Source: Pseudomonas phage vB_PaeM_RyC23_M4LORT
DNA length: 64,000 nucleotides
Direction: 5' to 3' (one strand)
Sequence record: PP781973.1
Part shown: positions 21,147 through 35,166 of the stretch, one piece after another
Position numbering within the stretch: position 1 is the stretch's first letter
Layout: the number at the start of each line of letters is the position of its first letter
Position numbers and translations under genes: made by a program
The notes under the pieces: model-generated
What the model was told of the DNA's origin: nothing
The model's database searches: none
The model's input: the letters and a program-made list of their open reading frames with translations, nothing else

Positions 21147-22886
21147 ATGATTATCGACGACGATAACATTCTTGATGATGACGAATCGGGGTCCAGTGAG
21201 TTCGATCTCACACAGATAGAAGATGCTGGAATGGACCCTTTGATGACCGCCGCAAGTAAAGCGGCCGACGATGCGATTGCGAGGAATGAGACTTACCGAG
21301 CGCAAAAGGCAGCAAAGTATGCAGAGGCGTATGCGGAACCAGATTTGAAGAAGCGAGCGCGATTGTTGATGCTCGATCAGGCCTTTGATCTTCCGGTCAG
21401 CCGGCTGGTGAAAGGACCGTTCGACGACTTCATCACCAAGTACAGCTCGACTTCAGACAGCAACTACCTCGCGGTCTATGATACGTTGTTCTGTAAGGGC
21501 GACGGAACTGTCCCACACCCGCACTTCGACGAGTTTCGCGGCCGGCTGGTGGACCACCGAGGCGTGGCGTTCAACAACAAAACCCTCGATCCGATTGACC
21601 TGATGGGCGCCCTCGCGGCTGCGGCCTTGGACGATCCCTCGATTAAGAAGACGATTGAGACTTGCTGCGTTTGGGCGCGTCGATATCGCCGCAACTCGCT
21701 GATCGAGACGTTTGAGAAGAAGATACCGGATTGGGACGGCGAAGAGCGGATCGAAACGCTGCTGATCGACTTGTTCAAACCGTTCGACACCGAGCTTAAC
21801 CGGATGGTGAGCAAGTATTTCTGGCTGAGCTTGTACTGCCGCATCAACTACCCTGGAATCTCGGCGCCGATCTCGTTGGCGTTGATTGGTGGGCAGGATG
21901 CGGGGAAATCATATTTCGGCTTGCTGATCTGTAAGGAACTGTCCGGTGGGCGCGATCTGGCTCCAGTTCAGCTCGACCTGAGCCGACACGACCAGACGCC
22001 GTTCCTGCGCAACATCACCGGCAACTCGGTTATTGCGAACGTCGGCGAAATGTCCGGCTTCAAAAAGGGCGACATGGAACGCATCAAAGAATTCCTGGTG
22101 CGATCTTCGGATACATTCGATCAGAAATTCGAGCCTGGCGAAACGATCAAGCGACAATGGATCACCATCATGGACGGCAACGGATACGATGGACTCCAGC
22201 GGGACGACTCCGGCAACCGTCGATTCTATCCGATGTTCGTGGCACAACTTCCCGACGAAGATGGAAAGCCGAACTGGGTTAAGCCGGGCGATGGTAATGA
22301 ACCGTTCAAGGTGGACTTCACCGACTTCGGTCGCAAATTCTGGCAAGCGATGGCTGAATGCCGCGCATGGATCGAAGAGCATGGTGTCGATGGATACCTG
22401 GATATGGTGTCGGAAGCGAACCGCGAAGTGCAGAAGTTCTCTATTTCGGAAATGGAGAATGCGCGTGGCGTGGTTCGTGATGACACGATTGATATGTATC
22501 TGATCAACGTGCTGATCAGTTGCGAGTTCGAAGAGATCAAGCCTGGCAGGAATTCAAAGAATCCTGGATGGAGAGTCAACACCATCGAAATCCTGAAATG
22601 GTTCGATGTTCTCGCCAGAAAGAAGCCGATTTCTCGCCACTTAACTCCGCACCTGAAGGCTCTGGGATTTGTTCCGAATAAGAATGGCTTGAATGGATGG
22701 TGCCTGCCTGTAGATAAGGTTGCACCTGGATGGACCAGAGATATGCACACGACGTTGCCGCCGTTCAATGATGTGCTTGTATACTTGCTGAGGAAGGTGG
22801 ATTCTGAGGTGACTGATGAAGAGGCAATGATTCAAATCCGCAAAGTTAAGGCCGAGCGCGCAAGGATATTGGGCGAGGATTTCTGA
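21147..22886 (+). CDS. VirE-family / primase C-terminal-like P-loop NTPase (replicative helicase-primase component)
   Basis: 579 aa; P-loop LIGGQDAGKS; acidic N-terminus; layout typical of virulence-associated E (D5/VirE) phage replication proteins. Confidence 0.7.
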   Translation: MIIDDDNILDDDESGSSEFDLTQIEDAGMDPLMTAASKAADDAIARNETYRAQKAAKYAEAYAEPDLKKRARLLMLDQAFDLPVSRLVKGPFDDFITKYSSTSDSNYLAVYDTLFCKGDGTVPHPHFDEFRGRLVDHRGVAFNNKTLDPIDLMGALAAAALDDPSIKKTIETCCVWARRYRRNSLIETFEKKIPDWDGEERIETLLIDLFKPFDTELNRMVSKYFWLSLYCRINYPGISAPISLALIGGQDAGKSYFGLLICKELSGGRDLAPVQLDLSRHDQTPFLRNITGNSVIANVGEMSGFKKGDMERIKEFLVRSSDTFDQKFEPGETIKRQWITIMDGNGYDGLQRDDSGNRRFYPMFVAQLPDEDGKPNWVKPGDGNEPFKVDFTDFGRKFWQAMAECRAWIEEHGVDGYLDMVSEANREVQKFSISEMENARGVVRDDTIDMYLINVLISCEFEEIKPGRNSKNPGWRVNTIEILKWFDVLARKKPISRHLTPHLKALGFVPNKNGLNGWCLPVDKVAPGWTRDMHTTLPPFNDVLVYLLRKVDSEVTDEEAMIQIRKVKAERARILGEDF

Positions 22887-22907
22887 TGTAGTGATGGAGT
22901 GTACTTG

Positions 22908-22942
22908 GACTAGGCCGCCTTCGGGCGGTCTTTTCTTTGGTG
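22908..22942 (+). terminator. rho-independent terminator after the VirE-like gene
   Basis: AGGCCGCC-ttcg-GGCGGTCT followed by TTTTCTTT. Confidence 0.7.
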
Positions 22943-22949
22943 AGGCGTA

Positions 22950-23560
22950 CATTCTATTAGGTTGTGGCCGAGTGAGATTCGGAAGCTATCTGGTAATTAG
23001 GATGGGGTGGCGATGGTGTATTATGGAAAGTTCGTGGACGGTGGATCGAGGATTTTGTGTGGTGAGTGGGTGGATTATGGAAAATCGACGATTCTGACTG
23101 GATTTTTGGGGTCGGCCGCGCCGGTCTTACTGGTAATTACCGAAACCGGGAATTTGGGTCGAGCCTTAGTGCCGCGTGGGCTTGAAGCGCTTATTCGGAT
23201 ACTTCCCGGTTTCGGATGCAGCCGCAAAAGTATACTACAGCGAAAATCGATTGCACAATCCTAATAGAAAAAATCTATCACGGACGTTACCTATCTTTAA
23301 AATTAATAAAATTAATAGTAATTTGGTAATTTGGTAAACTTTAGTATTTGAAAGCCTCGCGGCACTAAGCTTGTACATATCCCGTCAAGTTTCCGATTCC
23401 AGCCAGCTCGCGGCAGGGTCGCCGGAAACTTCCGGACTTCCAATCCATGGGTCGCGGCAACACCACGGCGGACTAAGCGGCAGGCACCAAAACTCGACGA
23501 ACGGAACCGGAAATTTGGGAGCGCGACAGAATCGCTCAGCTGGACATATTTCTAACATTC
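22950..23560. repeat. iteron-like direct and inverted repeat cluster with AT-rich core (candidate origin, pac site or regulatory hub)
   Basis: perfect 13-bp inverted repeat CCGAAACCGGGAA (23140-23152) / TTCCCGGTTTCGG (23204-23216); direct repeats ATTATGGAAA (23021-23030, 23074-23083) and AACCGG(G)AAATTTGGG (23144-23159, 23502-23517); motif TCGCGGCA at 23355, 23407, 23451, 23769, plus an inverse copy at ~23170; AT-rich stretch 23281-23345; palindrome CCGGAAACTTCCGG (23421-23434). Confidence 0.5.
23321..23400 (+). repeat. conserved ~75-nt element, copy A (core AAAGCCTCGCGGCAcTAaGCTT...ATCCCGTCAAGTTTCCGA)
   Basis: ~80% identical to 43163-43240; an inverted partner of the core lies at 23165-23188. 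Confidence 0.7.
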
Positions 23561-23847: not shown

Positions 23848-24417
23848 ATGACCAAACACTACAGCCCCGACGATCTAGTCACGCCACAGGAATTCGCAGA
23901 CCCGCATTTCGCGGCGATCAACCAAAAGCGATTCGACCTGTACATCGACCTGCGCGTCCAAGGCTACAGCTCCTGGCGGGTCTTCCGGGCCATCTGGGGT
24001 GAGGAGCACATGGACGGTCCCGCCCAGGCTCGCATCTTCGCGATGGAGTCCAACCCGTACTATCGCAAGCAGTTCAAGGCCAAGTTGAACGCGACCAAAA
24101 CGTCCGACTTGTGGAATCCAAAGACGGCGCTCCACGAACTCCTCCAAATGGTTCGTGACCCCACCGTCAAGGACTCCAGTCGTCTGTCGGCCATCAAGGA
24201 ATTGAACGTTCTGGCTGAAATCACGTTCGTGGACGAGTCTGGCAAGACCAGGATCGGTCGCGGTTTGGCCGACTTCTACGCATCAGAAGCCGAGGCTCAG
24301 ACCGCGACCGTCGCTGCTGCGGCCGAAGCCAATGGCTATGTGCCGGAAGGCGAAGAGGGCGATTTCCCGTCCCCGACGCCGGAACCGACCGAGGAAGACC
24401 GCGCCAACCCCATTTAG
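23848..24417 (+). CDS. putative terminase small subunit (tentative)
   Basis: 189 aa; N-terminal LVTPQEFADPHFAAINQKRFDLYIDLRVQGYSSWRVFRAIWGEE resembles the HTH region of TerS proteins (LTPKQExF...Y...G.N...A...AGYS); acidic C-terminus; sits right after the repeat-rich non-coding region. Confidence 0.35.
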   Translation: MTKHYSPDDLVTPQEFADPHFAAINQKRFDLYIDLRVQGYSSWRVFRAIWGEEHMDGPAQARIFAMESNPYYRKQFKAKLNATKTSDLWNPKTALHELLQMVRDPTVKDSSRLSAIKELNVLAEITFVDESGKTRIGRGLADFYASEAEAQTATVAAAAEANGYVPEGEEGDFPSPTPEPTEEDRANPI

Positions 24418-24537
24418 ACATAAAATAACATCGTTCTAGGCCCGAATCGGACCGAACTAAGGCGACGGTAGCGGGAAGGGACGAAAAACGATTCTAGGGC
24501 GGTTCTAGGAAGTCGGAGCCTAACCCTCAGAAACGAC

Positions 24538-24580
24538 AAAGCCCCGGACTCTAGCTCAGAATCCGGGGCTTTCTTTTGGG
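24538..24580. terminator. bidirectional rho-independent terminator between convergent genes
   Basis: AAAGCCCCGGA...TCCGGGGCTTT with T-run CTTTCTTTTG on plus; usable from both strands. Confidence 0.6.
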
Positions 24581-24584
24581 CGCC

Positions 24585-25199
24585 TTATTCGCCAGCTTCG
24601 ATGATTTCGAAGTTGTATTTGACGCCTTCGTGCTCGAAAGTCATTTTGCCAGCCGCCTTCAGCTGCATGCGGAAGCGGATGTGTTTCGAAGAAGGCAGGC
24701 CGAACTCGATGAATGCTGCGTTGGTGGACCGGAACTCGCCGCGCTTGCCTTTGACAGTCACAGCCACGCCATGGCGCTGAGTGCGTTTCTTGGAAACTTC
24801 CGGGTCTTTCCAGGAGTTGGCGATGGCTGCCGACAGGTCTTTGGACTCTTTGGCTTTCTCCGGAGCGTTCTTGGCCTCTTCGCGCATCTTCCGGATTTCT
24901 TCCAGCGCTTCCTCTTCGGTGATCTCTTCTTCAGGCTTCAGATTCTCTTCCTCGGCCTTCTCTTCTTCCTTCTTCTTGGAAGTGCGGGTTTTGTAGACTT
25001 TGGCCGGGGCTTCCTCTTCCTGGAAGGCTTCTTCCTCGGCCGGCAGAGCATTCAGGATGGCGAGGCAGCGACGCTCAGCAGTCTTGCGGTCAGAGAAACG
25101 CTTGACAGTCGCATCGGCGTTGTGGGCGTTGTAGAAGGCGACCAGTTCTTTCATTTCTGCGTTCTGGATGTCGCCGAAGGTTTTGATGGAGTTGGTCAT
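24585..25199 (-). CDS. hypothetical protein (acidic, K/E-rich middle)
   Basis: 204 aa; SD GAGGA upstream; driven by the promoter at 25263-25290. Confidence 0.6.
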   Translation of the reverse strand: MTNSIKTFGDIQNAEMKELVAFYNAHNADATVKRFSDRKTAERRCLAILNALPAEEEAFQEEEAPAKVYKTRTSKKKEEEKAEEENLKPEEEITEEEALEEIRKMREEAKNAPEKAKESKDLSAAIANSWKDPEVSKKRTQRHGVAVTVKGKRGEFRSTNAAFIEFGLPSSKHIRFRMQLKAAGKMTFEHEGVKYNFEIIEAGE

Positions 25200-25254
25200 T
25201 TTGCGATCCTCTGTTTTGGAAGATTTCGTTCGGGCTTCGGTTTGTCGCCCCGTT

Positions 25255-25300
25255 GAAAGAGATTATGCCTAGGTCGATGCTGCGTGTCTACATTTATTTC
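25255..25300 (-). promoter_or_regulatory. sigma70-like promoter (minus strand)
   Basis: minus-strand -35 TAGACA (25285-25290), 17-nt spacer, -10 CATAAT (25263-25268) inside GGCATAATCTC. Confidence 0.6.
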
Positions 25301-25339
25301 ATCAGATTGATCGCAAAGCCGACGAACGGTTGTCGGATG

Positions 25340-25372
25340 TGAAAACACCGCAGAGCAGGCTGCGGTGTTTGG
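25340..25372 (-). terminator. putative terminator downstream of the 25389-26099 gene
   Basis: minus-strand AAACACCGCAGcctgctCTGCGGTGTTT + TCAC; the T-run is partly within the stem. Confidence 0.35.
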
Positions 25373-25388
25373 TGGGCGAGGGCGATGG

Positions 25389-26099
25389 TCAAGCGAACGG
25401 ATCGCCCAGCATATCTTCAGACGGGGCACGTTGCATATCGCCCAGCTTGTCTTCGTCAGTTGCCGGACTGGACGGGATCGCGCCGGACCGAAGCGACAGA
25501 GATTCCGACTGCCTGCTCACCTGCGGAGCCGGAGGAGCCGGAGGAGCTTTTGGCGCAGTAGGGGCAGGCGGGACCGGCAGGCCTGGAGGAGCCATCGGCG
25601 CCATGGGCGGCTCCGGAAGATCGGGCAGGTCAGGAAGACTCGGCGCTATGCCGCCAAAGGACCGCTGCGACTGCTGCGCCGGATTGTCGCCGAACATTTC
25701 GGCGGATCGGTTGTCCTTGATGACTTGACCTATGGCCGTCTTGTCGCCGCCCGGCTCTGCCGGATCGAAGCCCGTGACTGGCCTGGTTACGCAGCGCATG
25801 TTCGGATGGGTAGGCAGATTTTTCAGAACTATGGAATCTGCCCAGACATACGGATTCTTGTGGTTGCCGGGTCCGTGGCTGATGATCTCGGCAGGAATAT
25901 GGCCGTTCATGGTGAGCCATTCCGCCATCCCTTGCCGAGTCAGCGGGCTTACCACGATCTGGCCAGTAGACTCTTCGGCGACGGCGAACAGATCACCGAG
26001 CTTGAACCCGATGATTATGTAGTTGGACCTGGACTCGCCGACGAAAGCCAGGGTTTCGATGTTGTGGTGGATATCTTGGTCTTCCCAGATGTAAAGCAT
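25389..26099 (-). CDS. hypothetical protein with Pro-rich C-terminal half
   Basis: 236 aa; N-terminal ~110 aa globular; C-terminal PDLPDLPEPPMAPMAPPGLPVPPAPTAPKAPPAPPAP low-complexity tract. Confidence 0.55.
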   Translation of the reverse strand: MLYIWEDQDIHHNIETLAFVGESRSNYIIIGFKLGDLFAVAEESTGQIVVSPLTRQGMAEWLTMNGHIPAEIISHGPGNHKNPYVWADSIVLKNLPTHPNMRCVTRPVTGFDPAEPGGDKTAIGQVIKDNRSAEMFGDNPAQQSQRSFGGIAPSLPDLPDLPEPPMAPMAPPGLPVPPAPTAPKAPPAPPAPQVSRQSESLSLRSGAIPSSPATDEDKLGDMQRAPSEDMLGDPFA

Positions 26100-26109
26100 G
26101 ATGCGCTCC

Positions 26110-26421
26110 TCAATAAGGCTGCTTGTTGTATTCGACCAGAGACATACCGGCCGGAACTTTGAAGCGGACGTATTCGATCATCATCGCCGTTCGACGCCGA
26201 TTCTTGCCAGACTCGTCATTAACGAAGAGTTCGCACTGATGCGGAATGACTCGCGTCACCAGGTCTTCGCCTTTCGAACCGTAGAACTTGATGTAGGCTG
26301 CGACGCCTCGCGTCATGTTCAGATGGACCGTTTCGCAGAGTCGCTGCGCGGCCGACGCGCTGGACAGATCGTTTGGACTGACCGTCACCCAGTAATGGCC
26401 ACTTTGTTCTTTATCGGACAT
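26110..26421 (-). CDS. hypothetical protein
   Basis: 103 aa ORF. Confidence 0.5.
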   Translation of the reverse strand: MSDKEQSGHYWVTVSPNDLSSASAAQRLCETVHLNMTRGVAAYIKFYGSKGEDLVTRVIPHQCELFVNDESGKNRRRTAMMIEYVRFKVPAGMSLVEYNKQPY

Positions 26422-26473
26422 AAAATGTCCTCCAATGAGAAAGCCTCTGCCGAGTCGCAGAGGCTGGTTGTTG

Positions 26474-26704
26474 TTAGTCGCGCTTCAACAGAACGACTTT
26501 GTCATATGCGCGATATTTACCGCGCCAGTCTTCCCAGTAGTCGCCGGCCGGGCAGGTAAGCTCCAGGGTGATTTCGTCGCGCCAGCATTCGACAGAAAGT
26601 ACAATCGCCTTGTTCCTGGCTGCACCCTCTGCGGCATCTGCTCTGAGCTTAATCAGAATTTCGTCGCCAGTTTTCAGCTCATCAACTCTTACAACTTTGG
26701 CCAT
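26474..26704 (-). CDS. hypothetical protein
   Basis: 76 aa from MAKVVRVDEL; strong SD AGGAGTG 8 nt upstream; the longer upstream extension lacks an RBS. Confidence 0.5.
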   Translation of the reverse strand: MAKVVRVDELKTGDEILIKLRADAAEGAARNKAIVLSVECWRDEITLELTCPAGDYWEDWRGKYRAYDKVVLLKRD

Positions 26705-26759
26705 GACACACTCCTGTTTGAAGAGGCGAGGCCGGAACCAACCCAGCCGCGCCGATGGA

Positions 26760-26984
26760 TTAACGTTTGTGAAGGATGGACACTGCGTCCACGTCGAGGA
26801 TGCTAATGGTACGGCGACGGCGCGGATTGCTGCGTTCATGGATGCGAATCAGGTTCGCAGCTGGAGCTTTGTCCACCACCCATATATCTTCCGGCTTCTG
26901 CTTCCGGAGCAGGACCGTCACTTCTGCGTTCTGGGCGAGGCCGTTGCAGATGAACGTGAACTTGGACGAGGGAGTTCTGTACAT
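26760..26984 (-). CDS. hypothetical protein
   Basis: 74 aa; downstream of the promoter at 27035-27064. Confidence 0.5.
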   Translation of the reverse strand: MYRTPSSKFTFICNGLAQNAEVTVLLRKQKPEDIWVVDKAPAANLIRIHERSNPRRRRTISILDVDAVSILHKR

Positions 26985-27029
26985 GTCGAGATTCCTTTTT
27001 GGACTTCGGGTCCGGCTTTTCAGTCGGTG

Positions 27030-27072
27030 AAGAGATTATGCCTGATCATCACCGTCGAGTAAAGCACTTATG
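27030..27072 (-). promoter_or_regulatory. sigma70-like promoter (minus strand), AGTGCTTTACT family
   Basis: minus-strand GTGCTTTACT (-35 TTTACT, 27059-27064), 18-nt spacer, -10 CATAAT (27035-27040). Confidence 0.55.
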
Positions 27073-27375
27073 GACCAATTCTCCAGTTAAATGGAACCAC
27101 AGCGCGGTATCGCTGATCGCTACGCTTCCGCGCCATGGCCCTTCTTGCTCACAGACTTCGAACCACAAGCTGATTTCCATCCTTGCCAGGACTCGGCCGA
27201 AGGATTCGAGCCGGCGCCGACTGGACAGGATGTCGACATTCACTCGTCGATTGACCTCGTACCGGCGACCGTTGATGGCGAAGACCAGCCGCAGGGTTTG
27301 TCCGTCAAGACACTCCCAGTATCTGGTTTCACACCGAAGCCAATAGCGCTTGCCAGCCGGGCCTACCATGGTCAT
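27049..27375 (-). CDS. hypothetical protein
   Basis: 108 aa from MTMVGPAGKRYW; ATG directly abuts the upstream stop. Confidence 0.4.
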   Translation of the reverse strand: MTMVGPAGKRYWLRCETRYWECLDGQTLRLVFAINGRRYEVNRRVNVDILSSRRRLESFGRVLARMEISLWFEVCEQEGPWRGSVAISDTALWFHLTGELVHKCFTRR

Positions 27376-27376
27376 T

Positions 27377-28021
27377 TTAATCGATGCTCCTGGCCGCGCC
27401 ACGCGGTCCGGTCGGCGGGACGGGATCGAACCGACCCAGGATGTAGTCGGGCCGGCGCGCTTCCTGAGGACACACGGCGAGAAGGCGCCATCCTGCGTCC
27501 AGGGCAGACTGGAGTTCGTCCGTGCAGCAGTCTTCCTTGAGCAGCAGACGGTTGACGTTCTGGAGATTCGGACCAGGTATGGCCGATCCTGTGAGTGAGT
27601 TCCAACCCTCGATTCCACTCACCATCTCCGGTTGGTTGATGTAGCTTACGGACATACCGGCCAACCGGCTCGCGGCCAGCTCCAGACGCTCCAGCATGGG
27701 TCGCAGAGCAGCTTCCGGGTCAATGTCGTCCCAGAGAAGGACCAGGCTGATGATGGTATACGGATAGTCCTTGTCCAGATCCCAGGCTGAAGCGGTCAGA
27801 CGGCCCAGGCCGATTTCATTACACATCACGGGAACGTCGTTGCTCCAGATGGACGGCTCCCAGTTCCGCTCACCAGGATTCCCGATTGTTACGCCTTCCA
27901 GGTTCCCCAGGAGAACGTGGAGCTTGCTGACATATTCCGACTCCAAGACTTTCCGCTCTTCGTCGGTCTGGTTGTGGCGATAGAAGGATGGAGGGCTGAC
28001 TTTGGCATGGTAGAGTTTCAT
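27377..28021 (-). CDS. hypothetical protein
   Basis: 214 aa from MKLYHAKVSPP (ATG 28019-28021); no recognisable motif. Confidence 0.55.
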   Translation of the reverse strand: MKLYHAKVSPPSFYRHNQTDEERKVLESEYVSKLHVLLGNLEGVTIGNPGERNWEPSIWSNDVPVMCNEIGLGRLTASAWDLDKDYPYTIISLVLLWDDIDPEAALRPMLERLELAASRLAGMSVSYINQPEMVSGIEGWNSLTGSAIPGPNLQNVNRLLLKEDCCTDELQSALDAGWRLLAVCPQEARRPDYILGRFDPVPPTGPRGAARSID

Positions 28022-28258
28022 AACTGTTCCTCGGTTTTGGAAGATTTGAAAGTTAGAGAATGGTGTCGCAGTATTTCTCGAAAGGACTCTGGCGCTTCTT
28101 CTCGCAGATCGCGCAGGTGATTTACAGGTCGGGCAGCTCGCTGTAAGTCTTGCCGAGATACAACCAGCGCTTGCACAGACTGCGGCCGTCCGACGTGAAG
28201 AAGTGGACTTTGCGAGCATTGCCGGGTTGCGCCCAGCCGCTTGGTGCCGGCTTCCTGC

Positions 28259-28474
28259 TCATACCATCACCACGTCAATTTCGTCGGCGAAGAAGCTAAA
28301 GCCAACTCCATCTGCGTAGCCAGTGTAACGCAGACGAGTCGTCCCATCAATGTGGGCTTCCTCGACGCCGATGACTTCCAGGGTGGTATCGTTGCAGTAC
28401 AGCTTGACGAACATCTTGATGCCGGAGCCAATCGCCGCGAAGGCGATCTGCTTGTACAGGTCTTGCTTGATCAT
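28259..28474 (-). CDS. hypothetical protein
   Basis: 71 aa ORF. Confidence 0.4.
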   Translation of the reverse strand: MIKQDLYKQIAFAAIGSGIKMFVKLYCNDTTLEVIGVEEAHIDGTTRLRYTGYADGVGFSFFADEIDVVMV

Positions 28475-28671
28475 GCTTTACGCTCCTGTTTGCGGATGTA
28501 TTCTGCCCTGACTTCGGCTTCGTACTTCGCCCAGAGCGCGTTGTCTACTGGACCCCAGGGACCGGTCTGAGTTCCGTCCACCGGCGCGAACTTGCCACCG
28601 GCGCGACGATACTTGGACAGCGTTCTCAGGCTGATGATTTTCTCTTCTTGGGAATCGAATTGATCGATCAT
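28471..28671 (-). CDS. hypothetical protein
   Basis: 66 aa from MIDQFDSQEEK; ATGA overlap with the upstream stop; the long N-terminal extension would overlap gene 28668-28919. Confidence 0.4.
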   Translation of the reverse strand: MIDQFDSQEEKIISLRTLSKYRRAGGKFAPVDGTQTGPWGPVDNALWAKYEAEVRAEYIRKQERKA

Positions 28672-28919
28672 TTGACGTACTTCCCGAAATAGGAGGTGTG
28701 GAGGATTTCGCGACCTTTGGTGATGGCCTTGAGCTTGATTCCGAAATTCTTGATCGCCCAGTCCAGATCGTGGTGATAGAACTCGATGATGTTGACGATT
28801 TGACCGGCGCTGTAGTGGATGACGCGAACCTTGCCGTTCCAGCGGAAGTCTTCGCGGCTGTTTACGGCCTCGACTGCGATGGTGTCGTTTCTGCCGATGG
28901 TCCATTTTGAGCTAGTCAT
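28668..28919 (-). CDS. hypothetical protein
   Basis: 83 aa; SD AAGAGGA; directly downstream of the promoter at 28963-28991. Confidence 0.55.
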   Translation of the reverse strand: MTSSKWTIGRNDTIAVEAVNSREDFRWNGKVRVIHYSAGQIVNIIEFYHHDLDWAIKNFGIKLKAITKGREILHTSYFGKYVK

Positions 28920-28957
28920 GTCGCAATCCTCTTTTTGGAGTGTTTCGCGTTTCGATG

Positions 28958-29000
28958 AGGTAACTATACCTCAGTCACATCATCGAGTAAAGCACTTTTG
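28958..29000 (-). promoter_or_regulatory. sigma70-like promoter (minus strand), AGTGCTTTACT family
   Basis: minus-strand AAAGTGCTTTACT (-35 28986-28991), 17-nt spacer, -10 TATAGT (28963-28968); palindrome TGAGGTAtagtTACCTCA over the -10/+1, nested in CGATGA...TCATCG. Confidence 0.65.
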
Positions 29001-29031
29001 AACAGATTGTCTAAAATTTCTGGAAGACAAA

Positions 29032-29244
29032 TCAATCGGCCGCGTCATCGATAGCGAACGCCGATCGCGCCAGGTCGATGATCTCTGGCCATGTCAAAGT
29101 AAAGGTTTTGCCGTCATCACGAATGATAATTGGAGTCTGCAGCGGCTCGCCCACCAGCATTGTGTAGGTATGTTTCTCGCCGGATGCGGAGCCGATGCGG
29201 GTGCTTAAGGTGAGCGGGGATTCTTTGTGTACGGTGCCGATCAT
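29032..29244 (-). CDS. hypothetical protein
   Basis: 70 aa ORF. Confidence 0.4.
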   Translation of the reverse strand: MIGTVHKESPLTLSTRIGSASGEKHTYTMLVGEPLQTPIIIRDDGKTFTLTWPEIIDLARSAFAIDDAAD

Positions 29245-29287
29245 TGTTTCGTTCCTCGGTAATACCCGGAGAATCGGGCGCGTTGGA

Positions 29288-29518
29288 TTAGGCTTTGCCG
29301 CGACGGATTGTTACGCCGCATTCAGTAGTCACTTCCTTAGCGGCAGGATCGCGAACAAGATAAGCACAGGCGGCTTTGACATTCAAAGCTCGGGTTGCGC
29401 CGAGTTTGCAGGAAAGATCATTCCCCTCTTCGTCCCACAGATGGGCAATGCGAGAGATACAGCCCTTTTCTACTTCAGCTTCTACAGTTACGGACTGGTC
29501 AATGTTAAATACCGGCAT
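29288..29518 (-). CDS. hypothetical protein
   Basis: 76 aa from MPVFNIDQS with SD GGAGAG 6 nt upstream; the longer 29548 start would be nearly leaderless. Confidence 0.5.
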   Translation of the reverse strand: MPVFNIDQSVTVEAEVEKGCISRIAHLWDEEGNDLSCKLGATRALNVKAACAYLVRDPAAKEVTTECGVTIRRGKA

Positions 29519-29549
29519 CGCTTTCTCTCCGAGATTGTTCCGTTTCAAT

Positions 29550-29592
29550 GAGGTGACTATACCTCAGCAACCTCATTGAGTAAAGCATTTTC
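29550..29592 (-). promoter_or_regulatory. sigma70-like promoter (minus strand), AGTGCTTTACT family
   Basis: minus-strand ATGCTTTACT (-35 29579-29584), 17-nt spacer, -10 TATAGT (29556-29561); nested palindromes CAATGAGGT...ACCTCATTG around the -10. Confidence 0.65.
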
Positions 29593-29598
29593 TTCAGA

Positions 29599-29787
29599 TT
29601 ATCTGAAACCTTTTGAAGCCAGGAATTGTCGCCAGAGCCAGTCAACGTGATCGTTGAGGTAGCGCTCGCCATCGGAAGACAGAGCCAGGCAGCCATCCTT
29701 TATGCCGAGCTTGGAGCCTGCAATCCATTCGAATTCGAACTGGAGCGTTCCGGGCCTAGGGATATGGGACATGGCGTATTTCTGCAC
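29599..29787 (-). CDS. hypothetical protein
   Basis: 62 aa ORF. Confidence 0.35.
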   Translation of the reverse strand: MQKYAMSHIPRPGTLQFEFEWIAGSKLGIKDGCLALSSDGERYLNDHVDWLWRQFLASKGFR

Positions 29788-29789
29788 GG

Positions 29790-30476
29790 TCAGTGATCCT
29801 CAGAAGGTTTCGCGTTTGCGATAGCCGCTACTTTCTGCATACCGAGGCGATAGAAATCGGCTTCTTTCCTGGCTTTGGTAAGCTGCTCCATGGCGTCGCA
29901 CGCCGTCTTGTGCTGGGAATTGGCGTTCTTGATGCTGCCGTCCAGGCTCTTGTCTAACTCTTCCCGAAGAGCCTTCTGCGATGCTAGCTCGGCCTCCAAA
30001 TCCTGGATTCTGAGTTGAAGCTGGCGGTTCTGCTCGGCGACCTTGTCTTCGCGGGCTACGAAGTTCTGCAGGCGGTCGACAAGACGAGTATTTTCGCGCA
30101 CCAGCTGCTGTTTGGCGACTTTGGTCCTTCGCAGTTCTGCTCGCAATGCGGACAACTCCAGCGCATGCAGATCGGCGTCCGATTCTTGCGACTCTGCGGC
30201 CTGCTTATTGCGCAGATAGTATTGCCCAGCCGCGAAGGCGAGCAGTGCTCGGTCTGTATCCTTAACTGTCTTGGCCATGAAGTGGGCTCGATACAGAGGC
30301 GCGAACTTGCAGGCGTCTGGGTCCCAGGCCAGATTATCGGCCACAGGCCAGAATGCGCGAAAGCTTTTCGCATCGACATGCGCCTTGACCGTCTGCGATG
30401 CGCCCGACTCTTCGCAGATGATTTCCAGAGGGACATAAATGGCGTTCTTGATGCTTCGGAAAGAAATGGTGGACAT
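29790..30476 (-). CDS. hypothetical protein with C-terminal coiled coil
   Basis: 228 aa from MSTISFRSIKN (SD GAGGA); Q/L/R/E-rich heptads in the C-terminal half. Confidence 0.55.
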   Translation of the reverse strand: MSTISFRSIKNAIYVPLEIICEESGASQTVKAHVDAKSFRAFWPVADNLAWDPDACKFAPLYRAHFMAKTVKDTDRALLAFAAGQYYLRNKQAAESQESDADLHALELSALRAELRRTKVAKQQLVRENTRLVDRLQNFVAREDKVAEQNRQLQLRIQDLEAELASQKALREELDKSLDGSIKNANSQHKTACDAMEQLTKARKEADFYRLGMQKVAAIANAKPSEDH

Positions 30477-30530
30477 AACACAATCCTCATAAGAAGTCGC
30501 GGCCGGGACCATCCTGGCCGCGCATCGTAA

Positions 30531-30833
30531 TCACTCTTCGCCTTCGTCCGCGCTCAGCCACTCTTCGAAGGCGAAATTCACCTTCGACTCGACCCAATCC
30601 TGCAGCTCATCGGCGAACTCGTCACTGTCGATGTCCATCGGAATGCCCAGAGTCTCTTCGTTCCACAGTTCGGCATTCAGTTCGAACTGGATAGCCGGTT
30701 CGCCATCCACATTCAGCAGGGTGCGGTCTGCGACTTCATATTCGTCGACATCGAAGAGGAAACCGCCGCTGATGATGTGCTGGATGAAAGCTTCGTCGAA
30801 GTTGCTGACGCCGATATTGATCTGCTTAGTCAT
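30531..30833 (-). CDS. hypothetical highly acidic protein
   Basis: 100 aa; D/E-rich; DNA-mimic-like composition (inference only). Confidence 0.5.
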   Translation of the reverse strand: MTKQINIGVSNFDEAFIQHIISGGFLFDVDEYEVADRTLLNVDGEPAIQFELNAELWNEETLGIPMDIDSDEFADELQDWVESKVNFAFEEWLSADEGEE

Positions 30834-30847
30834 TTTTTCTGGCCCCT

Positions 30848-30993
30848 TATTTGGCGAGTTTGTACTGAGCTTTGAGGGTGGTCAGCTTAGCTTTCAGGGC
30901 GATCATAGCCTGGCCGCGCAGGCCTTCCATTTCTGCCTCGCTGATGGCGATCTTGGCGGAGCGGATTTGATCGTTGATCTGGGATTTGGTCAT
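30848..30993 (-). CDS. hypothetical small protein
   Basis: 48 aa (MTKSQINDQIRSAKIAISEAEM...), absent from the ORF track because it is under 60 aa; SD AGAGGAACG; promoter directly upstream. Confidence 0.4.
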
Positions 30994-31031
30994 TTCTGCG
31001 TTCCTCTGTTTTGGAGTGTTTCGCGTTCGAT

Positions 31032-31072
31032 GAAGAGATTATGACGCTATTCAGAATGGAAGTAAAGCAGAA
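31032..31072 (-). promoter_or_regulatory. sigma70-like promoter (minus strand), family member
   Basis: minus-strand CTGCTTTACT (-35 31061-31066), 17-nt spacer, -10 CATAAT (31038-31043). Confidence 0.55.
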
Positions 31073-31160
31073 TTGTGAAATATTTCTCAAAGTGGACGAA
31101 CGGTATGCCCCGTCAGGAATATTTCCTCCCATGGAAGGCATTTCCGCATCCGAATGTTGA

Positions 31161-31319
31161 TTAGGTATCCCAAAGCGCGCAGTGGCGAATGTGAGTCCGC
31201 ACGTACATAGGGTTGTATTGTGCGAAGTGCTCGACGGTCGCATCCAAGGCTCTGCTATTGCCGCACCCTTCCGCTTTGCGAGCCAGGAAGAATGCTTCTA
31301 TTTGCTGGTTTGCGTTCAT
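31161..31319 (-). CDS. hypothetical small protein
   Basis: 52 aa (MNANQQIEAFFLARKAEGCG...), under the ORF-track size cutoff; SD GGAGGGTAAG; promoter directly upstream. Confidence 0.4.
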   Translation of the reverse strand: MNANQQIEAFFLARKAEGCGNSRALDATVEHFAQYNPMYVRTHIRHCALWDT

Positions 31320-31353
31320 CGTCTTACCCTCCAGGTGTTTGTTCGTTTCGATG

Positions 31354-31394
31354 AAGAGATTATGCCGTTGGTCAGAATGGAAGTAAAGTGTATT
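31354..31394 (-). promoter_or_regulatory. sigma70-like promoter (minus strand), family member
   Basis: minus-strand CACTTTACT (-35 31383-31388), 17-nt spacer, -10 CATAAT (31360-31365). Confidence 0.55.
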
Positions 31395-31426
31395 AACAAT
31401 AAAATTATGTTCACCGACGAACGGTT

Positions 31427-32872
31427 GTGCTCGACCGTCTGTTGCGGCGTCGATATACTCGACCTATTGCTGACACCGGATTGATTAGAATGTACAAACT
31501 CAACCCTGCACTGCGAGCGGTCTGGCGAACTCGCGCCCGTTACAAAGTCATTTATGGCGGCCGGGCGTCTTCGAAGTCACACGACGCAGGCGGTATCGCC
31601 GTTTACCTCGCGGCCAACTATAGACTCAAGTTCCTCTGTGCTCGCCAGTTTCAGAACCGCATCAGCGAATCGGTCTACACGTTGATCAAGGACAAGATTG
31701 AGAATTCTGAGTACAACGGCGAGTTCATTTTCACGAAGAACTCGATCAAGCACAAGATGACCGGATCAGAATTCCTATTCTATGGGATCGCCCGTAACCT
31801 GTCGGAAATCAAGTCTACCGAAGGCATCGACATTCTCTGGCTTGAGGAAGCTCACTACCTGACCCAGGAGCAGTGGGAAGTCATCGAGCCGACCATCCGG
31901 AAAGAGAACTCAGAAATCTGGATCATCTTCAATCCGAACGAAGTGACAGACTTCGTGTATCAGAACTTCGTGGTGAAGCCACCCAAAGACGCCTTCGTCA
32001 AGATGATCAACTGGAACGAAAATCCGTTTCTCAGTGAGACGATGCTCAAGGTCATCCACGAAGCTTATGAGCGCGACAAGGACCAGGCCGAGCACATTTA
32101 TGGCGGGATTCCGAAGACTGGTGGCGACAAATCCGTCATCAATCTCAAGTTCATTCTTGCGGCCATCGACGCCCACAAGAAACTCGGCTGGGAGCCGGCC
32201 GGATCGAAGCGCATCGGCTTCGACGTTGCGGACGACGGCGAGGATGCGAACGCAACTACGCTCATGCACGGCAACGTCATTATGGAAGTGGACGAATGGG
32301 ACGGCCTGGAAGATGAACTGCTCAAGTCGTCCAGCCGCGTTTACAACCTGGCGAAGATGAAAGGCGCCTCGGTCACTTATGACTCCATCGGTGTCGGCGC
32401 TCACGTCGGATCGAAGTTCGCCGAGTTGAACGATGCCAGTCCCGACTTCAAACTGATCTATGATCCATTCAACGCGGGCGGCGCTGTCGATAAGCCTGAT
32501 GATATCTACATGAAGCTGCCGCACACGACGATCAAGAACAAAGACCACTTCAGCAACATCAAGGCGCAGAAGTGGGAAGAAGTCGCGACCCGATTCCGGA
32601 AGACTTATGAAGCGGTTGAGCATGGAAAGGTTTATCCCTTCGACGAATTGATTTCGATCAACTCTGAAACGATTCACCCGGACAAACTAAATCAACTGTG
32701 TATCGAACTTTCGTCGCCGCGCAAAGACCTGGACATGAACGGCCGGTTCAAAGTCGAGTCCAAGAAGGATATGCGCGAGAAACGCAAGATCAAGTCGCCG
32801 AACATCGCTGACTCGGTGATTATGTCGGCCATTCTGCCGATCCGGAAGCCCAAAGGTTTCTTCGACTTCTAA
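31427..32872 (+). CDS. terL: terminase large subunit
   Basis: 481 aa; Walker A IYGGRASSKSH, Walker B-like ILWLEEAH, C-terminal nuclease domain with acidic residues; Met22 (31490, MYKLNPAL) is an alternative start. Confidence 0.85.
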   Translation: MLDRLLRRRYTRPIADTGLIRMYKLNPALRAVWRTRARYKVIYGGRASSKSHDAGGIAVYLAANYRLKFLCARQFQNRISESVYTLIKDKIENSEYNGEFIFTKNSIKHKMTGSEFLFYGIARNLSEIKSTEGIDILWLEEAHYLTQEQWEVIEPTIRKENSEIWIIFNPNEVTDFVYQNFVVKPPKDAFVKMINWNENPFLSETMLKVIHEAYERDKDQAEHIYGGIPKTGGDKSVINLKFILAAIDAHKKLGWEPAGSKRIGFDVADDGEDANATTLMHGNVIMEVDEWDGLEDELLKSSSRVYNLAKMKGASVTYDSIGVGAHVGSKFAELNDASPDFKLIYDPFNAGGAVDKPDDIYMKLPHTTIKNKDHFSNIKAQKWEEVATRFRKTYEAVEHGKVYPFDELISINSETIHPDKLNQLCIELSSPRKDLDMNGRFKVESKKDMREKRKIKSPNIADSVIMSAILPIRKPKGFFDF

Positions 32873-32907
32873 ACACAGAAAGCCCGGATCGCTCCGGGCT
32901 TCGGGTC

Positions 32908-33291
32908 TTACTCGGTGTGGTTCCTGGCGCTGAGTGTCGACGCAACGGCCTCGCCGACTCCCAGGGCTTCCTGGCCGGCCGCGAGCGCTTCGGCTTCCGA
33001 CTCGACGATGAAATCATCACCTTGGCCATCGCCTGGCGGAACCTCGACCAGCACGGCTTCTTCGCCTTCGAACCGCAGGTCATAGGTCTTTTCGACGGAC
33101 AGACCGTAACGAGCGTTGAGCGCGTCCCAGAGCTGGGCCTCATAGGTCCGCAGGTCTTGCAGAGCTTTCTGGTGGCTGAGCATGGCCATGTCAACGGCCC
33201 GTTGCAGGGTTTCGTCCAGGACGTTGAATCGCATGCGAAGAGAACGAATCCGCTCGACCACTTCCGCATCCACTACATGCCTTTCGATCAT
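32908..33291 (-). CDS. hypothetical protein
   Basis: 127 aa ORF; ATGA overlap with the upstream gene. Confidence 0.5.
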   Translation of the reverse strand: MIERHVVDAEVVERIRSLRMRFNVLDETLQRAVDMAMLSHQKALQDLRTYEAQLWDALNARYGLSVEKTYDLRFEGEEAVLVEVPPGDGQGDDFIVESEAEALAAGQEALGVGEAVASTLSARNHTE

Positions 33292-33506
33292 CGCTTTTCA
33301 CCTTTGCTGAATGTAACGTTGTAGCCGTTGTCGGCCAGGTAGGTCAGGGCGCCTTCGAAGGAAGTTCCGACGAGGTGCTTTAGCTTCATTTCGCGTTGCG
33401 CGGCCAGCCAGAATGCAGTTCCGGAGAACTCGGCGCGGCCTTCGGCCAAGACCCTGCCATCAGGCCCGGCGATACGTACATGGACGGAAGATAGCTTGAT
33501 CGGCAT
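33288..33506 (-). CDS. hypothetical protein
   Basis: 72 aa from MPIKLSSVHV; ATGA overlap. Confidence 0.4.
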   Translation of the reverse strand: MPIKLSSVHVRIAGPDGRVLAEGRAEFSGTAFWLAAQREMKLKHLVGTSFEGALTYLADNGYNVTFSKGEKR

Positions 33507-33856: not shown

Positions 33857-33899
33857 GATGATTCTCTTTTGGTTGGTGGTTGTTCGCTGCTCAGGCCTA

Positions 33900-34298: not shown

Positions 34299-34300
34299 GG

Positions 34301-35080: not shown

Positions 35081-35119
35081 GGTCGGTTCCTTTTGTCTGA
35101 AGGGTTTCGCATTTCAATG

Positions 35120-35160: not shown

Positions 35161-35166
35161 CTTCCA

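What the first reader, a model, noticed from the sequence alone, without database searches (positions are those of the whole stretch)
24585..31319. Early-gene island of ~17 small ORFs between putative terS and terL; terL is the lone plus-strand gene in a 14.6-kb minus-strand region
If 23848-24417 is terS, it is separated from terL (31427) by a 6.7-kb opposite-strand cassette of small genes with no assignable functions. Nearly every one or two genes have their own strong promoter and many are ATGA-coupled. Such cassettes are typical hypervariable host-takeover or anti-defence loci. Candidates include a highly acidic 100-aa protein (30531-30833, DNA-mimic-like composition), proteins with a Pro-rich tail, and several Zn-ribbon or coiled-coil proteins. 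A similar minus-strand block (32908-39215) follows terL, making terL an island.
Basis: inference. Interest (0 to 1): 0.55.

Follow-up and report, generated by a model that had tools for sequence, protein, structure and literature searches.

The report
Pbunavirus early anti-defence gene island
This 6.7-kb run of small leftward genes between the two terminase genes is the known early "anti-defence island" region of PB1-like Pseudomonas phages, here in one particular combination of swappable gene cassettes.

Summary
The window is a Pbunavirus (PB1-like Pseudomonas aeruginosa myovirus) genome, about 94-97% identical to roughly 300 GenBank records. ORF 23848-24417 is TerS (99% identical to the solved E217 small terminase, PDB 7UXE). 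terL is the only rightward gene in the region. Between them lie 18 leftward small genes, 24585-31319.

The interpretation also holds, but it is already published. The block equals phage 14-1 gp77-gp90 plus gp01-gp02. It contains the experimentally defined "anti-defence island" gp80-88. The window carries orthologues of Bdi1 (gp80, 95%), gp82 (95%) and anti-END/ZadI-1 (gp88, 94%). It lacks Bdi2 and TadIII-1.

Compared with 8-14 relatives, this is one of the most variable stretches of the 47 kb examined, with nine indel or replacement slots. The block after terL is conserved.

Two multi-allelic slots are bounded by direct repeats of a strong sigma-70-like early promoter, which resembles T4 PeSL cassettes. 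In this phage they hold uncharacterised genes: a 52-aa gene where other phages carry TadIII-1, and a 76-aa plus 70-aa pair.

The acidic 100-aa protein is real (net charge -24) but matches no known DNA-mimic fold.

Verdict: correct reading of an ordinary, already described locus.

The parts
23848..24417 (+). terS (small terminase), left border of the block
   Evidence: 99% identity over the full length to PDB 7UXE, Small terminase, 10 chains. Equals 14-1 gp76.
24538..24572 (.). Bidirectional intrinsic terminator between the convergent terS and gp77-like genes
   Evidence: 16-bp stem followed by a T-run; RNA fold z = -3.2. Annotated as a terminator on both strands in 14-1, PB1 and F8.
24585..25199 (-). 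gp77 orthologue (204 aa). Conserved two-domain protein of a large uncharacterised family.
   Evidence: 93-100% identity in relatives. 829 cluster representatives at E<=1e-3. No Pfam, PDB or NCBIfam match.
25262..25290 (-). Early-type promoter, weaker copy (TAGACA-17-CATAAT), serving gp77
25343..25370 (-). Terminator hairpin after gp78 (11-bp stem then UUUUC), just upstream of the promoter
25389..26099 (-). gp78 orthologue (236 aa) with a variable Pro-rich C-terminal tail
   Evidence: 33 Pro. 64-96% identity, with the tail region 25547-25760 replaced in several relatives.
26110..26421 (-). gp79 orthologue (103 aa)
26442..26465 (-). Intrinsic terminator hairpin between gp80 and gp79
   Evidence: RNA fold z = -4.75.
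26474..26704 (-). gp80 orthologue = Bdi1 (broad defence inhibitor 1), 76 aa
   Evidence: 95% identity to 14-1 gp80 and to PBanzai_087. Function taken from PMC13307970 and PMC12390725.
26725..26753 (-). GC-rich hairpin between gp82 and gp80, at the position where gp81/Bdi2 is inserted in other phages
   Evidence: The gp81 insertion maps to 26696-26720.
26760..26984 (-). gp82 orthologue (74 aa), a broad anti-defence protein in 14-1 and Pa12
   Evidence: 95% identity. Function from PMC13307970.
27035..27063 (-). Early promoter copy upstream of gp82
27049..27375 (-). gp83 orthologue (108 aa, 4 Cys)
   Evidence: 96% identity; dN/dS 0.03-0.05.
27377..28021 (-). gp84 orthologue (214 aa). N-terminal ferredoxin-like domain plus a conserved C-terminal motif CTDELQ..GWR..AVCPQ..RRPDYILGR.
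   Evidence: Relatives in other phages lie next to terL or between a UvrD helicase and PolA.
28056..28262 (-). gp85 orthologue interrupted by a nonsense codon (GAA to TAA at 28122-28124). The open part is 46 aa.
28259..28474 (-). gp86 orthologue (71 aa), ATGA-coupled
28471..28671 (-). gp87 orthologue (66 aa), ATGA-coupled
28668..28919 (-). gp88 orthologue = anti-END / ZadI-1 (83 aa)
   Evidence: 94% identity to 14-1 gp88 and to PBanzai_097. Absent from PB1, F8 and billy. Found in 245 phage records. Function.
28963..28991 (-). Early promoter copy (right repeat of slot D) with an inverted repeat across the spacer and -10
   Evidence: (repeat family D1).
29032..29244 (-). Slot-D cassette gene s70 (70 aa), an ORFan
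   Evidence: No PHROG, Pfam or NCBIfam match. Found only in Pbunavirus, in 49 records.
29288..29518 (-). Slot-D cassette gene s76 (76 aa, 4 Cys)
   Evidence: phrog_36638. Present or absent together with s70.
29556..29584 (-). Early promoter copy (left repeat of slot D)
   Evidence: A MEME-derived 'putative phage promoter' is annotated at the same two positions in phiKTN6.
29599..29787 (-). gp89 orthologue (62 aa)
   Evidence: 77% identity.
29790..30476 (-). gp90 orthologue (228 aa), a highly divergent coiled-coil protein often mis-annotated as 'tape measure'
   Evidence: 42-100% identity. Only weak coiled-coil Pfam hits.
30498..30522 (-). GC-rich terminator-like hairpin between gp01 and gp90
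   Evidence: A terminator is annotated here in PTLAW2.
30531..30833 (-). gp01 orthologue (100 aa), highly acidic, orphan fold
   Evidence: pI 4.05, net charge -24. Family restricted to Pbunavirus. AF2 pLDDT 80.6. No PDB or viral fold match other than the PB1 orthologue.
30847..30993 (-). gp02 orthologue (48 aa), basic and helical
31038..31066 (-). Early promoter copy (right repeat of slot A)
   Evidence: repeat family D7.
31161..31319 (-). Slot-A cassette gene s52 (52 aa), in the slot that holds TadIII-1 in Banzai, Pa-M and pasz phages
   Evidence: Found in 26 phage records.
31359..31387 (-). Early promoter copy (left repeat of slot A), divergent from terL
31490..32872 (+). terL (large terminase), the lone plus-strand gene
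   Evidence: PDB 8DKR and Sf6 gp2 matches; PHROG terminase large subunit.
32879..32902 (.). Terminator hairpin between terL and the convergent second minus-strand block
   Evidence: Annotated in PTLAW2.

Best explanation
The block is the leftward early region of a Pbunavirus genome. Host sigma-70 RNA polymerase reads it straight after DNA entry from several near-identical strong promoters, and hairpin terminators or attenuators punctuate the transcripts. Its products are small proteins that disarm host immunity and probably take over host functions before replication starts.

By orthology, three genes of this phage have a known role. The gp80 orthologue (Bdi1) inhibits type I Zorya, RADAR, Hypnos and type I Druantia. 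The gp82 orthologue is a broad counter-defence protein whose target is unknown. The gp88 orthologue (anti-END/ZadI-1) binds and blocks END nucleases, which cut the hypermodified thymidine-containing DNA of these phages, and it also counters type I Zorya.

The locus evolves by gene gain, loss and replacement. At two sites the exchanged unit is a promoter-plus-gene cassette bounded by direct repeats of the early promoter. Homologous recombination between promoter copies, within one genome or between co-infecting relatives, can therefore delete, insert or swap a cassette while leaving it expressed.

Shown here: identity of the genes, the promoter repeats, the indel boundaries, the excess variability and purifying selection. 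Taken from the literature: the anti-defence activities. Inferred: early timing in this particular phage, recombination at the promoters, and activity of the 94-95% identical orthologues.
For: Identity of the phage and of terS and terL.

One-to-one mapping to 14-1 gp77-gp90 plus gp01-gp02 at 77-100% amino-acid identity, except the very divergent coiled-coil gp90.

Published functions: adi = gp80-88, and deleting it costs 14-1 and Pa12 6 of 18 hosts (PMC13307970); gp88 binds END; Bdi1, ZadI-1 and TadIII placed on the Banzai genome (PMC12390725), whose gene order I mapped onto the window.

Cross-check of the mapping: PB1 and F8, reported END-sensitive, lack the gp88 gene in my map.

Variability: block 0.91 aligned and 0.913 identical, against at least 0.958 identity with full alignment for terS, terL and the structural genes; nine slots; cassette map of 15 genomes.

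Promoter family. The same repeats are independently annotated as a MEME promoter motif in phiKTN6. [quoted passage not shown]

Boundaries at the repeats: in 14-1, PTLAW2 and PAB1 the two window flanks of slot A overlap by 45 bp on a single promoter copy. In 14-1 the flanks of slot D overlap by 81 bp. Alternative cassettes in the same slots are also flanked by promoter copies.

Coding status and mosaicism: dN/dS 0.03-0.40 where it can be estimated, and dS jumps from 0 to 1.75 between neighbouring genes.
Against: No experiment was done on this phage. The orthologues differ from the tested proteins by 4-5 residues, and the Bdi1 orthologue also has a 3-residue insertion. The primary Bdi1/Bdi2/ZadI-1/TadIII paper (Costa et al. 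2025, Cell Host Microbe) could not be read, so those activities come second-hand from papers that cite it. Transcription start-site coordinates for 14-1 were not available, so promoter activity and early timing at these exact sites are inferred. Only 2 of 9 variable slots are promoter-bounded; the others are single-gene indels at gene boundaries, so promoter recombination is not the only mechanism. Ten or more genes in the block (gp77-79, gp83-87, gp89-gp02) have no demonstrated role. gp84-family relatives sit in replication modules of other phages and gp77 belongs to a large conserved family, so part of the block may not be anti-defence at all.
Confidence: 0.85

Rival explanations
1. The block is mainly a host-takeover region that redirects transcription, shuts off host metabolism and prepares replication. 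On this view anti-defence is a minority function, and variability reflects dispensability rather than an arms race.
For: Only 3 of the 18 genes here have orthologues with a demonstrated anti-defence role. gp77 and gp84 belong to widespread families, and gp84 relatives lie between a UvrD helicase and PolA in other phages. The neighbouring minus-strand block encodes the gp12 orthologue (36310-37242, DUF6011). In 14-1 gp12 interacts with the RNAP alpha subunit and is thought to redirect the host polymerase to phage-specific promoters.
Against: Deleting gp80-88 did not prevent growth on PAO1 but removed 6 of 18 clinical hosts, which is the signature of counter-defence rather than of essential takeover. 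The multi-allelic slots contain TadIII-1 and an AcrF2-like protein in other isolates.
Confidence: 0.3
2. The acidic 100-aa protein (30531-30833) is a DNA mimic of the Ocr/ArdA type that blocks restriction or other DNA-binding defences.
For: Net charge -24, pI 4.05. Early position directly behind a strong promoter. A confident compact model, pLDDT 80.6.
Against: No structural similarity to any PDB entry (best E 0.29, TM<0.4) and none to any viral predicted structure other than its own PB1 orthologue. It lies outside the experimentally defined adi. It is missing from phage R12. Acidic composition alone is weak evidence.
Confidence: 0.15
3. Many of the small ORFs are not genes but chance ORFs in 55% G+C DNA.
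For: The region has many overlapping alternative-frame ORFs. Several called genes are below 60 aa.
Against: Full-length PHROG matches for 17 of 18. Shine-Dalgarno sites. dN/dS 0.03-0.40 for the 14 shared genes where it can be estimated. Four orthologues have experimental phenotypes.
Confidence: 0.03

Closest known systems
Anti-defence island ('adi', gp80-gp88) of Pseudomonas phage 14-1 and Pa12 (Yee et al. 2026, PMC13307970; Costa et al. 2025; Yee et al. 2025)
   Same: Same genus, same position between terS and terL, same strand and same gene order. Orthologues of gp80/Bdi1, gp82, gp83-87 and gp88/anti-END at 92-98% identity, counting the interrupted gp85. Same pattern of gain and loss between isolates.
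   Different: This phage lacks gp81/Bdi2 and the slot-F and slot-H genes. It has a nonsense codon in gp85. It carries a two-gene cassette (s76 + s70) next to gp88 and a 52-aa gene in the terL-proximal slot, none of which occur in 14-1. My analysis extends the variable region beyond gp80-88 to the whole terS-terL interval, because TadIII-1 maps to the terL-proximal slot A.
PeSL (promoter-early stem-loop) cassettes in the hyperplastic regions of T4-type phages (Arbiol et al. 2010, PMC2839356; Comeau et al. 2014, PMC4122927)
   Same: Repeated strong sigma-70-like early promoters sit between small non-essential genes. Insertions, deletions and replacements have end points in the repeats. The result is a modular shuffle of expressed cassettes.
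   Different: An unrelated phage family and an unrelated motif sequence. A terminator stem-loop directly coupled to the promoter is clear at only one copy (25343-25370 with P25290), and two copies instead carry an inverted repeat across the -10. Only 2 of 9 variable slots are repeat-bounded. Mini-circle formation was not tested.
Clustered anti-defence or early accessory loci of other phages, such as T7 0.3/Ocr and the early region, and anti-CRISPR loci (recalled from general knowledge, not tested here)
   Same: Small early-expressed proteins without enzymatic domains, high turnover between close relatives, and placement next to strong early promoters.
   Different: No sequence or fold relationship was detected. 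No aca-like regulator was identified in the block.

Membership tests
Pbunavirus anti-defence island (14-1 gp80-88) | Located in a Pbunavirus genome between terS and terL, transcribed opposite to them | tested here: met
Pbunavirus anti-defence island (14-1 gp80-88) | Encodes a gp80/Bdi1 orthologue | tested here: met
   26474-26704, 95% identity to 14-1 gp80 and to PBanzai_087
Pbunavirus anti-defence island (14-1 gp80-88) | Encodes a gp81/Bdi2 orthologue | tested here: not met
   The only match is the 31%-identical paralogue gp80. The 254-bp gene is absent at 26696-26720. The locus is variable by definition, so this does not exclude membership.
Pbunavirus anti-defence island (14-1 gp80-88) | Encodes a gp82 orthologue | tested here: met
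   26760-26984, 95% identity
Pbunavirus anti-defence island (14-1 gp80-88) | Encodes a gp88 (anti-END/ZadI-1) orthologue | tested here: met
   28668-28919, 94% identity. The END-sensitive phages PB1 and F8 lack it.
Pbunavirus anti-defence island (14-1 gp80-88) | Gene gain, loss and divergence between isolates | tested here: met
Pbunavirus anti-defence island (14-1 gp80-88) | Needed for plating on hosts with the matching defence systems | not testable with these tools
   Requires phage genetics. Shown for 14-1 and Pa12 only.
Thoeris anti-defence TadIII-1 (PBanzai_105) | Sequence homologue present | tested here: not met
   No tblastn hit in the window. Its slot holds the unrelated 52-aa gene 31161-31319.
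PeSL-type mobile regulatory cassettes | Repeated strong sigma-70-like early promoters between small genes | tested here: met
   Six copies in the block and eight in the window, all on the minus strand. Activity not measured here.
PeSL-type mobile regulatory cassettes | Stem-loop terminator coupled to each promoter | tested here: inconclusive
   Clear at 25343-25370 upstream of P25290. Inverted repeats lie inside P29584 and P28991. Nothing significant upstream of P31387, P31066 or P27063.
PeSL-type mobile regulatory cassettes | Indel or replacement end points lie in the repeats | tested here: met
   Slots A and D: the flanks overlap by 45 bp and 81 bp on a single promoter copy in genomes that lack the cassette. 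Alternative cassettes are also repeat-flanked. Not true for the other seven slots.
PeSL-type mobile regulatory cassettes | Excised mini-circles | not testable with these tools
   Needs outward-facing PCR or read-level data
DNA-mimic anti-restriction proteins (Ocr/ArdA-like) for 30531-30833 | Strongly acidic surface composition | tested here: met
   27 D+E against 3 K+R, pI 4.05
DNA-mimic anti-restriction proteins (Ocr/ArdA-like) for 30531-30833 | Fold or sequence similarity to a known mimic | tested here: not met
   Foldseek against PDB: best E 0.29. BFVD: only its own PB1 orthologue. No Pfam match.
Small terminase (E217 TerS type) for 23848-24417 | Sequence identity to a structurally characterised TerS | tested here: met
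   E 6.7e-125, 189/189 residues aligned, PDB 7UXE

The most novel reading that the evidence does not exclude
The two promoter-flanked slots, 31067-31344 and 29029-29541, are dedicated cassette-exchange sites of Pbunavirus. Recombination between 45-80-bp early-promoter repeats swaps ready-to-express counter-defence genes, a PeSL-like mechanism not yet described for this family. On this reading the occupants in this phage are uncharacterised anti-defence proteins: the 52-aa gene 31161-31319, which sits where TadIII-1 sits elsewhere, and the pair 29288-29518 and 29032-29244, which sit where an AcrF2-like protein sits elsewhere.
Probability: 0.35. Interest if true: 0.5.

Novelty: already known. 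Interest (0 to 1): 0.3.

Why it matters
Pbunaviruses are among the phages most used in Pseudomonas aeruginosa therapy, and which counter-defence genes an isolate carries helps to decide which clinical strains it can kill. Reading this window's repertoire is therefore practical information: Bdi1 present, Bdi2 absent, gp82 present, anti-END/ZadI-1 present, TadIII-1 absent, gp85 truncated. The promoter-bounded slots suggest natural landing sites for engineering extra anti-defence genes. As a discovery, however, the locus and its meaning are already in the literature.

Tried and rejected
Sequence-family searches.
- Pfam and NCBIfam scans of all 18 proteins found nothing above threshold.
- PHROGs gave only 'unknown function' families, apart from a misleading 'tape measure' label for the coiled-coil gp90.
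- The GenBank labels 'HNH endonuclease' (gp77), 'IgA FC receptor / bag' (gp78) and 'tail length tape measure' (gp90) in relatives have no domain support here. They are best treated as low-complexity or coiled-coil annotation artefacts.

Acidic gp01 orthologue.
- AF2 gave a usable model.
- Foldseek against PDB and BFVD found nothing except the PB1 orthologue.
- The DNA-mimic idea is left as composition only.

gp84 orthologue.
- The alignment of 74 sequences was good and the model reached pLDDT 81.8.
- Foldseek returned only generic ferredoxin-like matches (E about 0.01), and the profile search against PDB found nothing.

gp77 orthologue.
- The exhaustive HMMER search revealed a large family (829 representatives).
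- Its profile hits no PDB entry and its members carry no Pfam domain.

RNA searches. Rfam and tRNA scans of the whole window were empty.

Literature gaps.
- The primary Costa et al. 2025 paper and the TSS tables of Putzeys et al. 2024 could not be read.
- The Mu-Gam-like Gabija determinant of Pbunaviruses is orf54, outside this block.
- A search for early-ORFan toxicity screens of 14-1 found nothing usable.

Full report
WHAT THE WINDOW IS. A megablast of 24000-33000 finds 301 phage records, 292 of them named Pseudomonas phage. Most are 90-97% identical, all are about 66 kb, and they belong to the genus Pbunavirus (PB1-like myoviruses of P. aeruginosa). Epa22 has the highest identity (97%) and the same gene configuration in this region.

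CHECKING THE OBSERVATION. On the minus strand between 24585 and 31319 there are 18 ORFs with plausible Shine-Dalgarno sites. 17 of them match PHROG families full-length; 29032-29244 matches none.
- ORF 23848-24417 is 99% identical over all 189 residues to PDB 7UXE, 'Small terminase' (10 chains).
- The plus-strand ORF ending at 32872 matches PDB 8DKR ('Large terminase protein') and Sf6 gp2. Its real start is most likely ATG 31490. Relatives annotate 1383 bp, and homology to Sf6 gp2 begins at residue 22 of the longer GTG-initiated ORF.
- Annotation of PTLAW2, 14-1, Epa22, BL6, billy and R12 shows terL as the only credible rightward gene between terS and the head genes.
- The acidic protein is real: 100 aa, pI 4.05, 27 acidic against 3 basic residues. 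So is the Pro-rich tail, with 33 Pro in 25389-26099.
- Two sub-claims are overstated. ATGA overlaps occur at three junctions only. I find six copies of one promoter family in the block, about one per three genes. Published long-read transcriptomics of phage 14-1 does report transcription units averaging one to two genes (PMC10914365).
- All 14 genes shared with 14-1 and BL6 have dN/dS of 0.03-0.40 wherever there are enough synonymous differences to estimate it, so they are genuine coding genes.

WHAT IT CORRESPONDS TO. The reference records of 14-1, PB1 and F8 are opened inside this block, which hides its continuity. Joining the record ends gives a one-to-one map:
- 24585-25199 = gp77
- 25389-26099 = gp78
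- 26110-26421 = gp79
- 26474-26704 = gp80
- 26760-26984 = gp82
- 27049-27375 = gp83
- 27377-28021 = gp84
- 28056-28262 = gp85
- 28259-28474 = gp86
- 28471-28671 = gp87
- 28668-28919 = gp88
- 29599-29787 = gp89
- 29790-30476 = gp90
- 30531-30833 = gp01
- 30847-30993 = gp02
Three window genes have no 14-1 counterpart: 29032-29244, 29288-29518 and 31161-31319. 14-1 gp81 has no window counterpart.

WHAT IS KNOWN ABOUT THOSE GENES.
- Yee et al. (bioRxiv 2026, PMC13307970) define gp80-88 of 14-1 as an 'anti-defense island'. gp80 and gp81 are the broad defence inhibitors Bdi1 and Bdi2 of Costa et al. 2025, reported active against type I Zorya, RADAR, Hypnos and type I Druantia.
- gp82 rescues Pbunaviruses and unrelated phages on several clinical isolates. 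gp88 inhibits END nucleases.
- Deleting the island costs 14-1 and Pa12 six of eighteen hosts.
- Yee et al. 2025 (10.1101/2025.03.31.646159) show that END nucleases cut hypermodified DNA. They also show that Pbunavirus DNA carries hypermodified thymidine, that gp88 co-purifies with END, and that F8 and PB1 are END-sensitive while 14-1 is not.
- The Banzai genome paper (PMC12390725) names PBanzai_087 as Bdi1, PBanzai_097 as ZadI-1 (anti-Zorya I and anti-END), PBanzai_098 as an AcrF2-like fold and PBanzai_105 as TadIII.
- I fetched that record and mapped it. 087 and 097 are the gp80 and gp88 orthologues, 95% and 94% identical to the window genes. 098 occupies the position of the window's 29032-29518 pair. 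TadIII is the gene nearest terL, in the position of the window's 52-aa gene, to which it is unrelated.
- As a consistency check, PB1 and F8 lack the gp88 gene in my map, which matches their reported END sensitivity.
- The gp88 family occurs in 245 phage records, including 39%-identical copies in a 287-kb jumbo phage. This fits the reported anti-END protein of Pa5oct.

VARIABILITY, MEASURED INDEPENDENTLY. I aligned window 3845-51147 to eight relatives for which about 48 kb was fetched.
- The block is aligned over 91% of its length at 91.3% identity (combined 0.834).
- terS and terL are each 0.958.
- The structural genes are 0.963.
- The replication genes are 0.904 overall, brought down by two other hot spots.
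- The minus-strand block after terL is 0.938. That second block is not hypervariable.

Chained alignments to eleven relatives give nine variable slots within the 7 kb:
- A: 31067-31344, the terL-proximal cassette.
- B: 30551-31143, gp02 plus gp01 lost in R12.
- C: the coiled-coil gp90, replaced or expanded.
- D: 29029-29541.
- E: gp88, absent in billy, PB1 and F8.
- F: an extra 66-aa gene between gp86 and gp85 in seven genomes.
- G: gp81.
- H: an extra 79-aa gene between gp79 and gp78.
- I: the Pro-rich tail of gp78.

Synonymous divergence jumps between adjacent genes. Against 14-1 it is 0 for gp84, 0.36 for gp83, 0.58-0.78 for gp01 and gp02, and 1.75 for gp90. The block is therefore a recombinational mosaic.

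ANATOMY AND LIKELY MECHANISM.
- A 50-70-nt motif recurs on the minus strand at 31387, 31066, 29584, 28991, 27063 and, more weakly, 25290. It reads CTTTACT-N17-(C/T)ATA(A/G)T followed by ..TCATCGAAACG, with an A/T-rich stretch upstream.
- Two further copies lie at 35153 and 13186. No comparable match exists on the plus strand.
- The annotators of phiKTN6 found the same repeats with MEME and labelled them putative phage promoters.
- In 14-1, 26 sigma-70-like promoters were mapped. Four of them were cloned, and all four drove msfGFP in E. coli and in P. aeruginosa. I could not get the coordinates to match them to these copies.
- Terminator-like hairpins lie at 24538-24572 (bidirectional, shared with terS), 25343-25370, 26442-26465, 26725-26753 and 30498-30522. 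Another lies at 32879-32902 behind terL.
- The two slots with several alternative alleles, A and D, are each bounded by direct repeats of the promoter: 42 nt at 90% identity and 51 nt at 86% identity.
- In genomes without the cassette, the two window flanks overlap on a single promoter copy. The overlap is 45 bp for slot A in 14-1, PTLAW2 and PAB1, and 81 bp for slot D in 14-1. Unrelated alternative cassettes are flanked by promoter copies in the same way.
- Slot A has five states in the 14 genomes that cover it: empty; s52; TadIII plus a 54-aa gene; and two others. Slot D has three states in 15 genomes: empty; s76 plus s70; and the AcrF2-like gene.
- This is what recombination between promoter repeats would produce. 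It parallels the PeSL cassettes of T4-type phages (PMC2839356, PMC4122927). The parallel is incomplete: a coupled terminator is clear at only one copy, and seven slots are not repeat-bounded.

INDIVIDUAL PROTEINS.
- None of the 18 has a Pfam or NCBIfam domain.
- The acidic gp01 orthologue is confined to Pbunavirus. It gives a confident small alpha/beta model with a long C-terminal helix. It resembles nothing in PDB or BFVD except its own PB1 orthologue, so the DNA-mimic suggestion rests on charge alone.
- The 70-aa slot-D gene is an ORFan, seen in 49 records. The 52-aa slot-A gene is seen in 26 records.
- gp84 has distant relatives in other phages, with a conserved C-terminal motif and an N-terminal ferredoxin-like domain. 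Its neighbours elsewhere are terL, or a UvrD helicase and PolA. It may not be an anti-defence gene.
- gp77 is the most conserved gene of the block and belongs to a large uncharacterised two-domain family.
- The gp85 orthologue carries a GAA-to-TAA nonsense codon that none of the nine comparison genomes in which the codon could be read shares.

COMPARISON WITH THE KNOWN, AND VERDICT. The locus is the same locus as the published Pbunavirus anti-defence island, extended by its flanking early genes, in another isolate. Membership features are met except for the optional Bdi2 and TadIII-1 genes. They are, however, a rediscovery of something described in 2025-2026.

Two things are not in the papers I could read. 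One is the promoter-repeat-bounded cassette architecture. The other is the specific uncharacterised occupants of the two slots in this phage. These form the modest novel residue.

Interest 0.3. Novelty: already known.

Noticed in passing
window 28122-28124 (within 28056-28262): The gp85 orthologue has a single-base nonsense change (GAA to TAA, codon 47). It removes the C-terminal CxxC part. None of the nine comparison genomes in which the codon could be read has it. It is either a strain-specific pseudogene or a sequencing error.
   Followed up: yes
window 17845-19344 and 22345-23344: Two other hypervariable spots lie outside the finding. Only 42-65% of the eight relatives align across 17845-19344 (around ORF 18171-19262, the 14-1 gp71 region). 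Identity drops to 79-85% just downstream of the primase/helicase gene. The Banzai paper places the antisense-encoded DadIII-1 anti-Druantia gene at PBanzai_071, which may be the first spot.
   Followed up: partly
window 29541-29591 and 28948-28998: The two slot-D promoter copies contain a 10-11-bp inverted repeat (AATGAGGT...ACCTCATT) spanning the spacer and -10. Fold z-scores are -3.4 and -2.4. It could be an operator for early shut-off or a 5' RNA hairpin. The slot-A copies lack it.
   Followed up: partly
window 13186 (-) and 35153 (-): Two further copies of the early promoter family lie outside the block. One is in the replication-gene region. The other is inside the conserved minus-strand block after terL, upstream of 34301-35080 (DUF2786/DUF7168).
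   Followed up: no
A weak sigma-70-like site (TCGACC-17-TATACT) sits at 31431-31459.
   Followed up: partly
locus L014 (Logan SRR31214444 contig, 43 kb), 1-5685: A distantly related phage contig shows the same 'terL island' layout. A Terminase_3 gene lies on one strand, flanked on both sides by opposite-strand small genes that include a gp84-family homologue. The arrangement is therefore older than the genus.
   Followed up: no
window 36310-37242: This is the orthologue of 14-1 gp12 (DUF6011 C-terminus). In the literature gp12 interacts with the RNA polymerase alpha subunit and is thought to redirect the host polymerase to phage-specific promoters. It lies in the conserved second minus-strand block.
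   Followed up: partly
loci L016-L018 (PB1, F8), L003/L004 (14-1): The reference records of 14-1, PB1 and F8 are linearised inside this block, between gp90 and gp01. The anti-defence region is therefore split across the two record ends, and the genes nearest terL (gp01, gp02, slot A) are numbered apart from gp77-90.
   Followed up: yes
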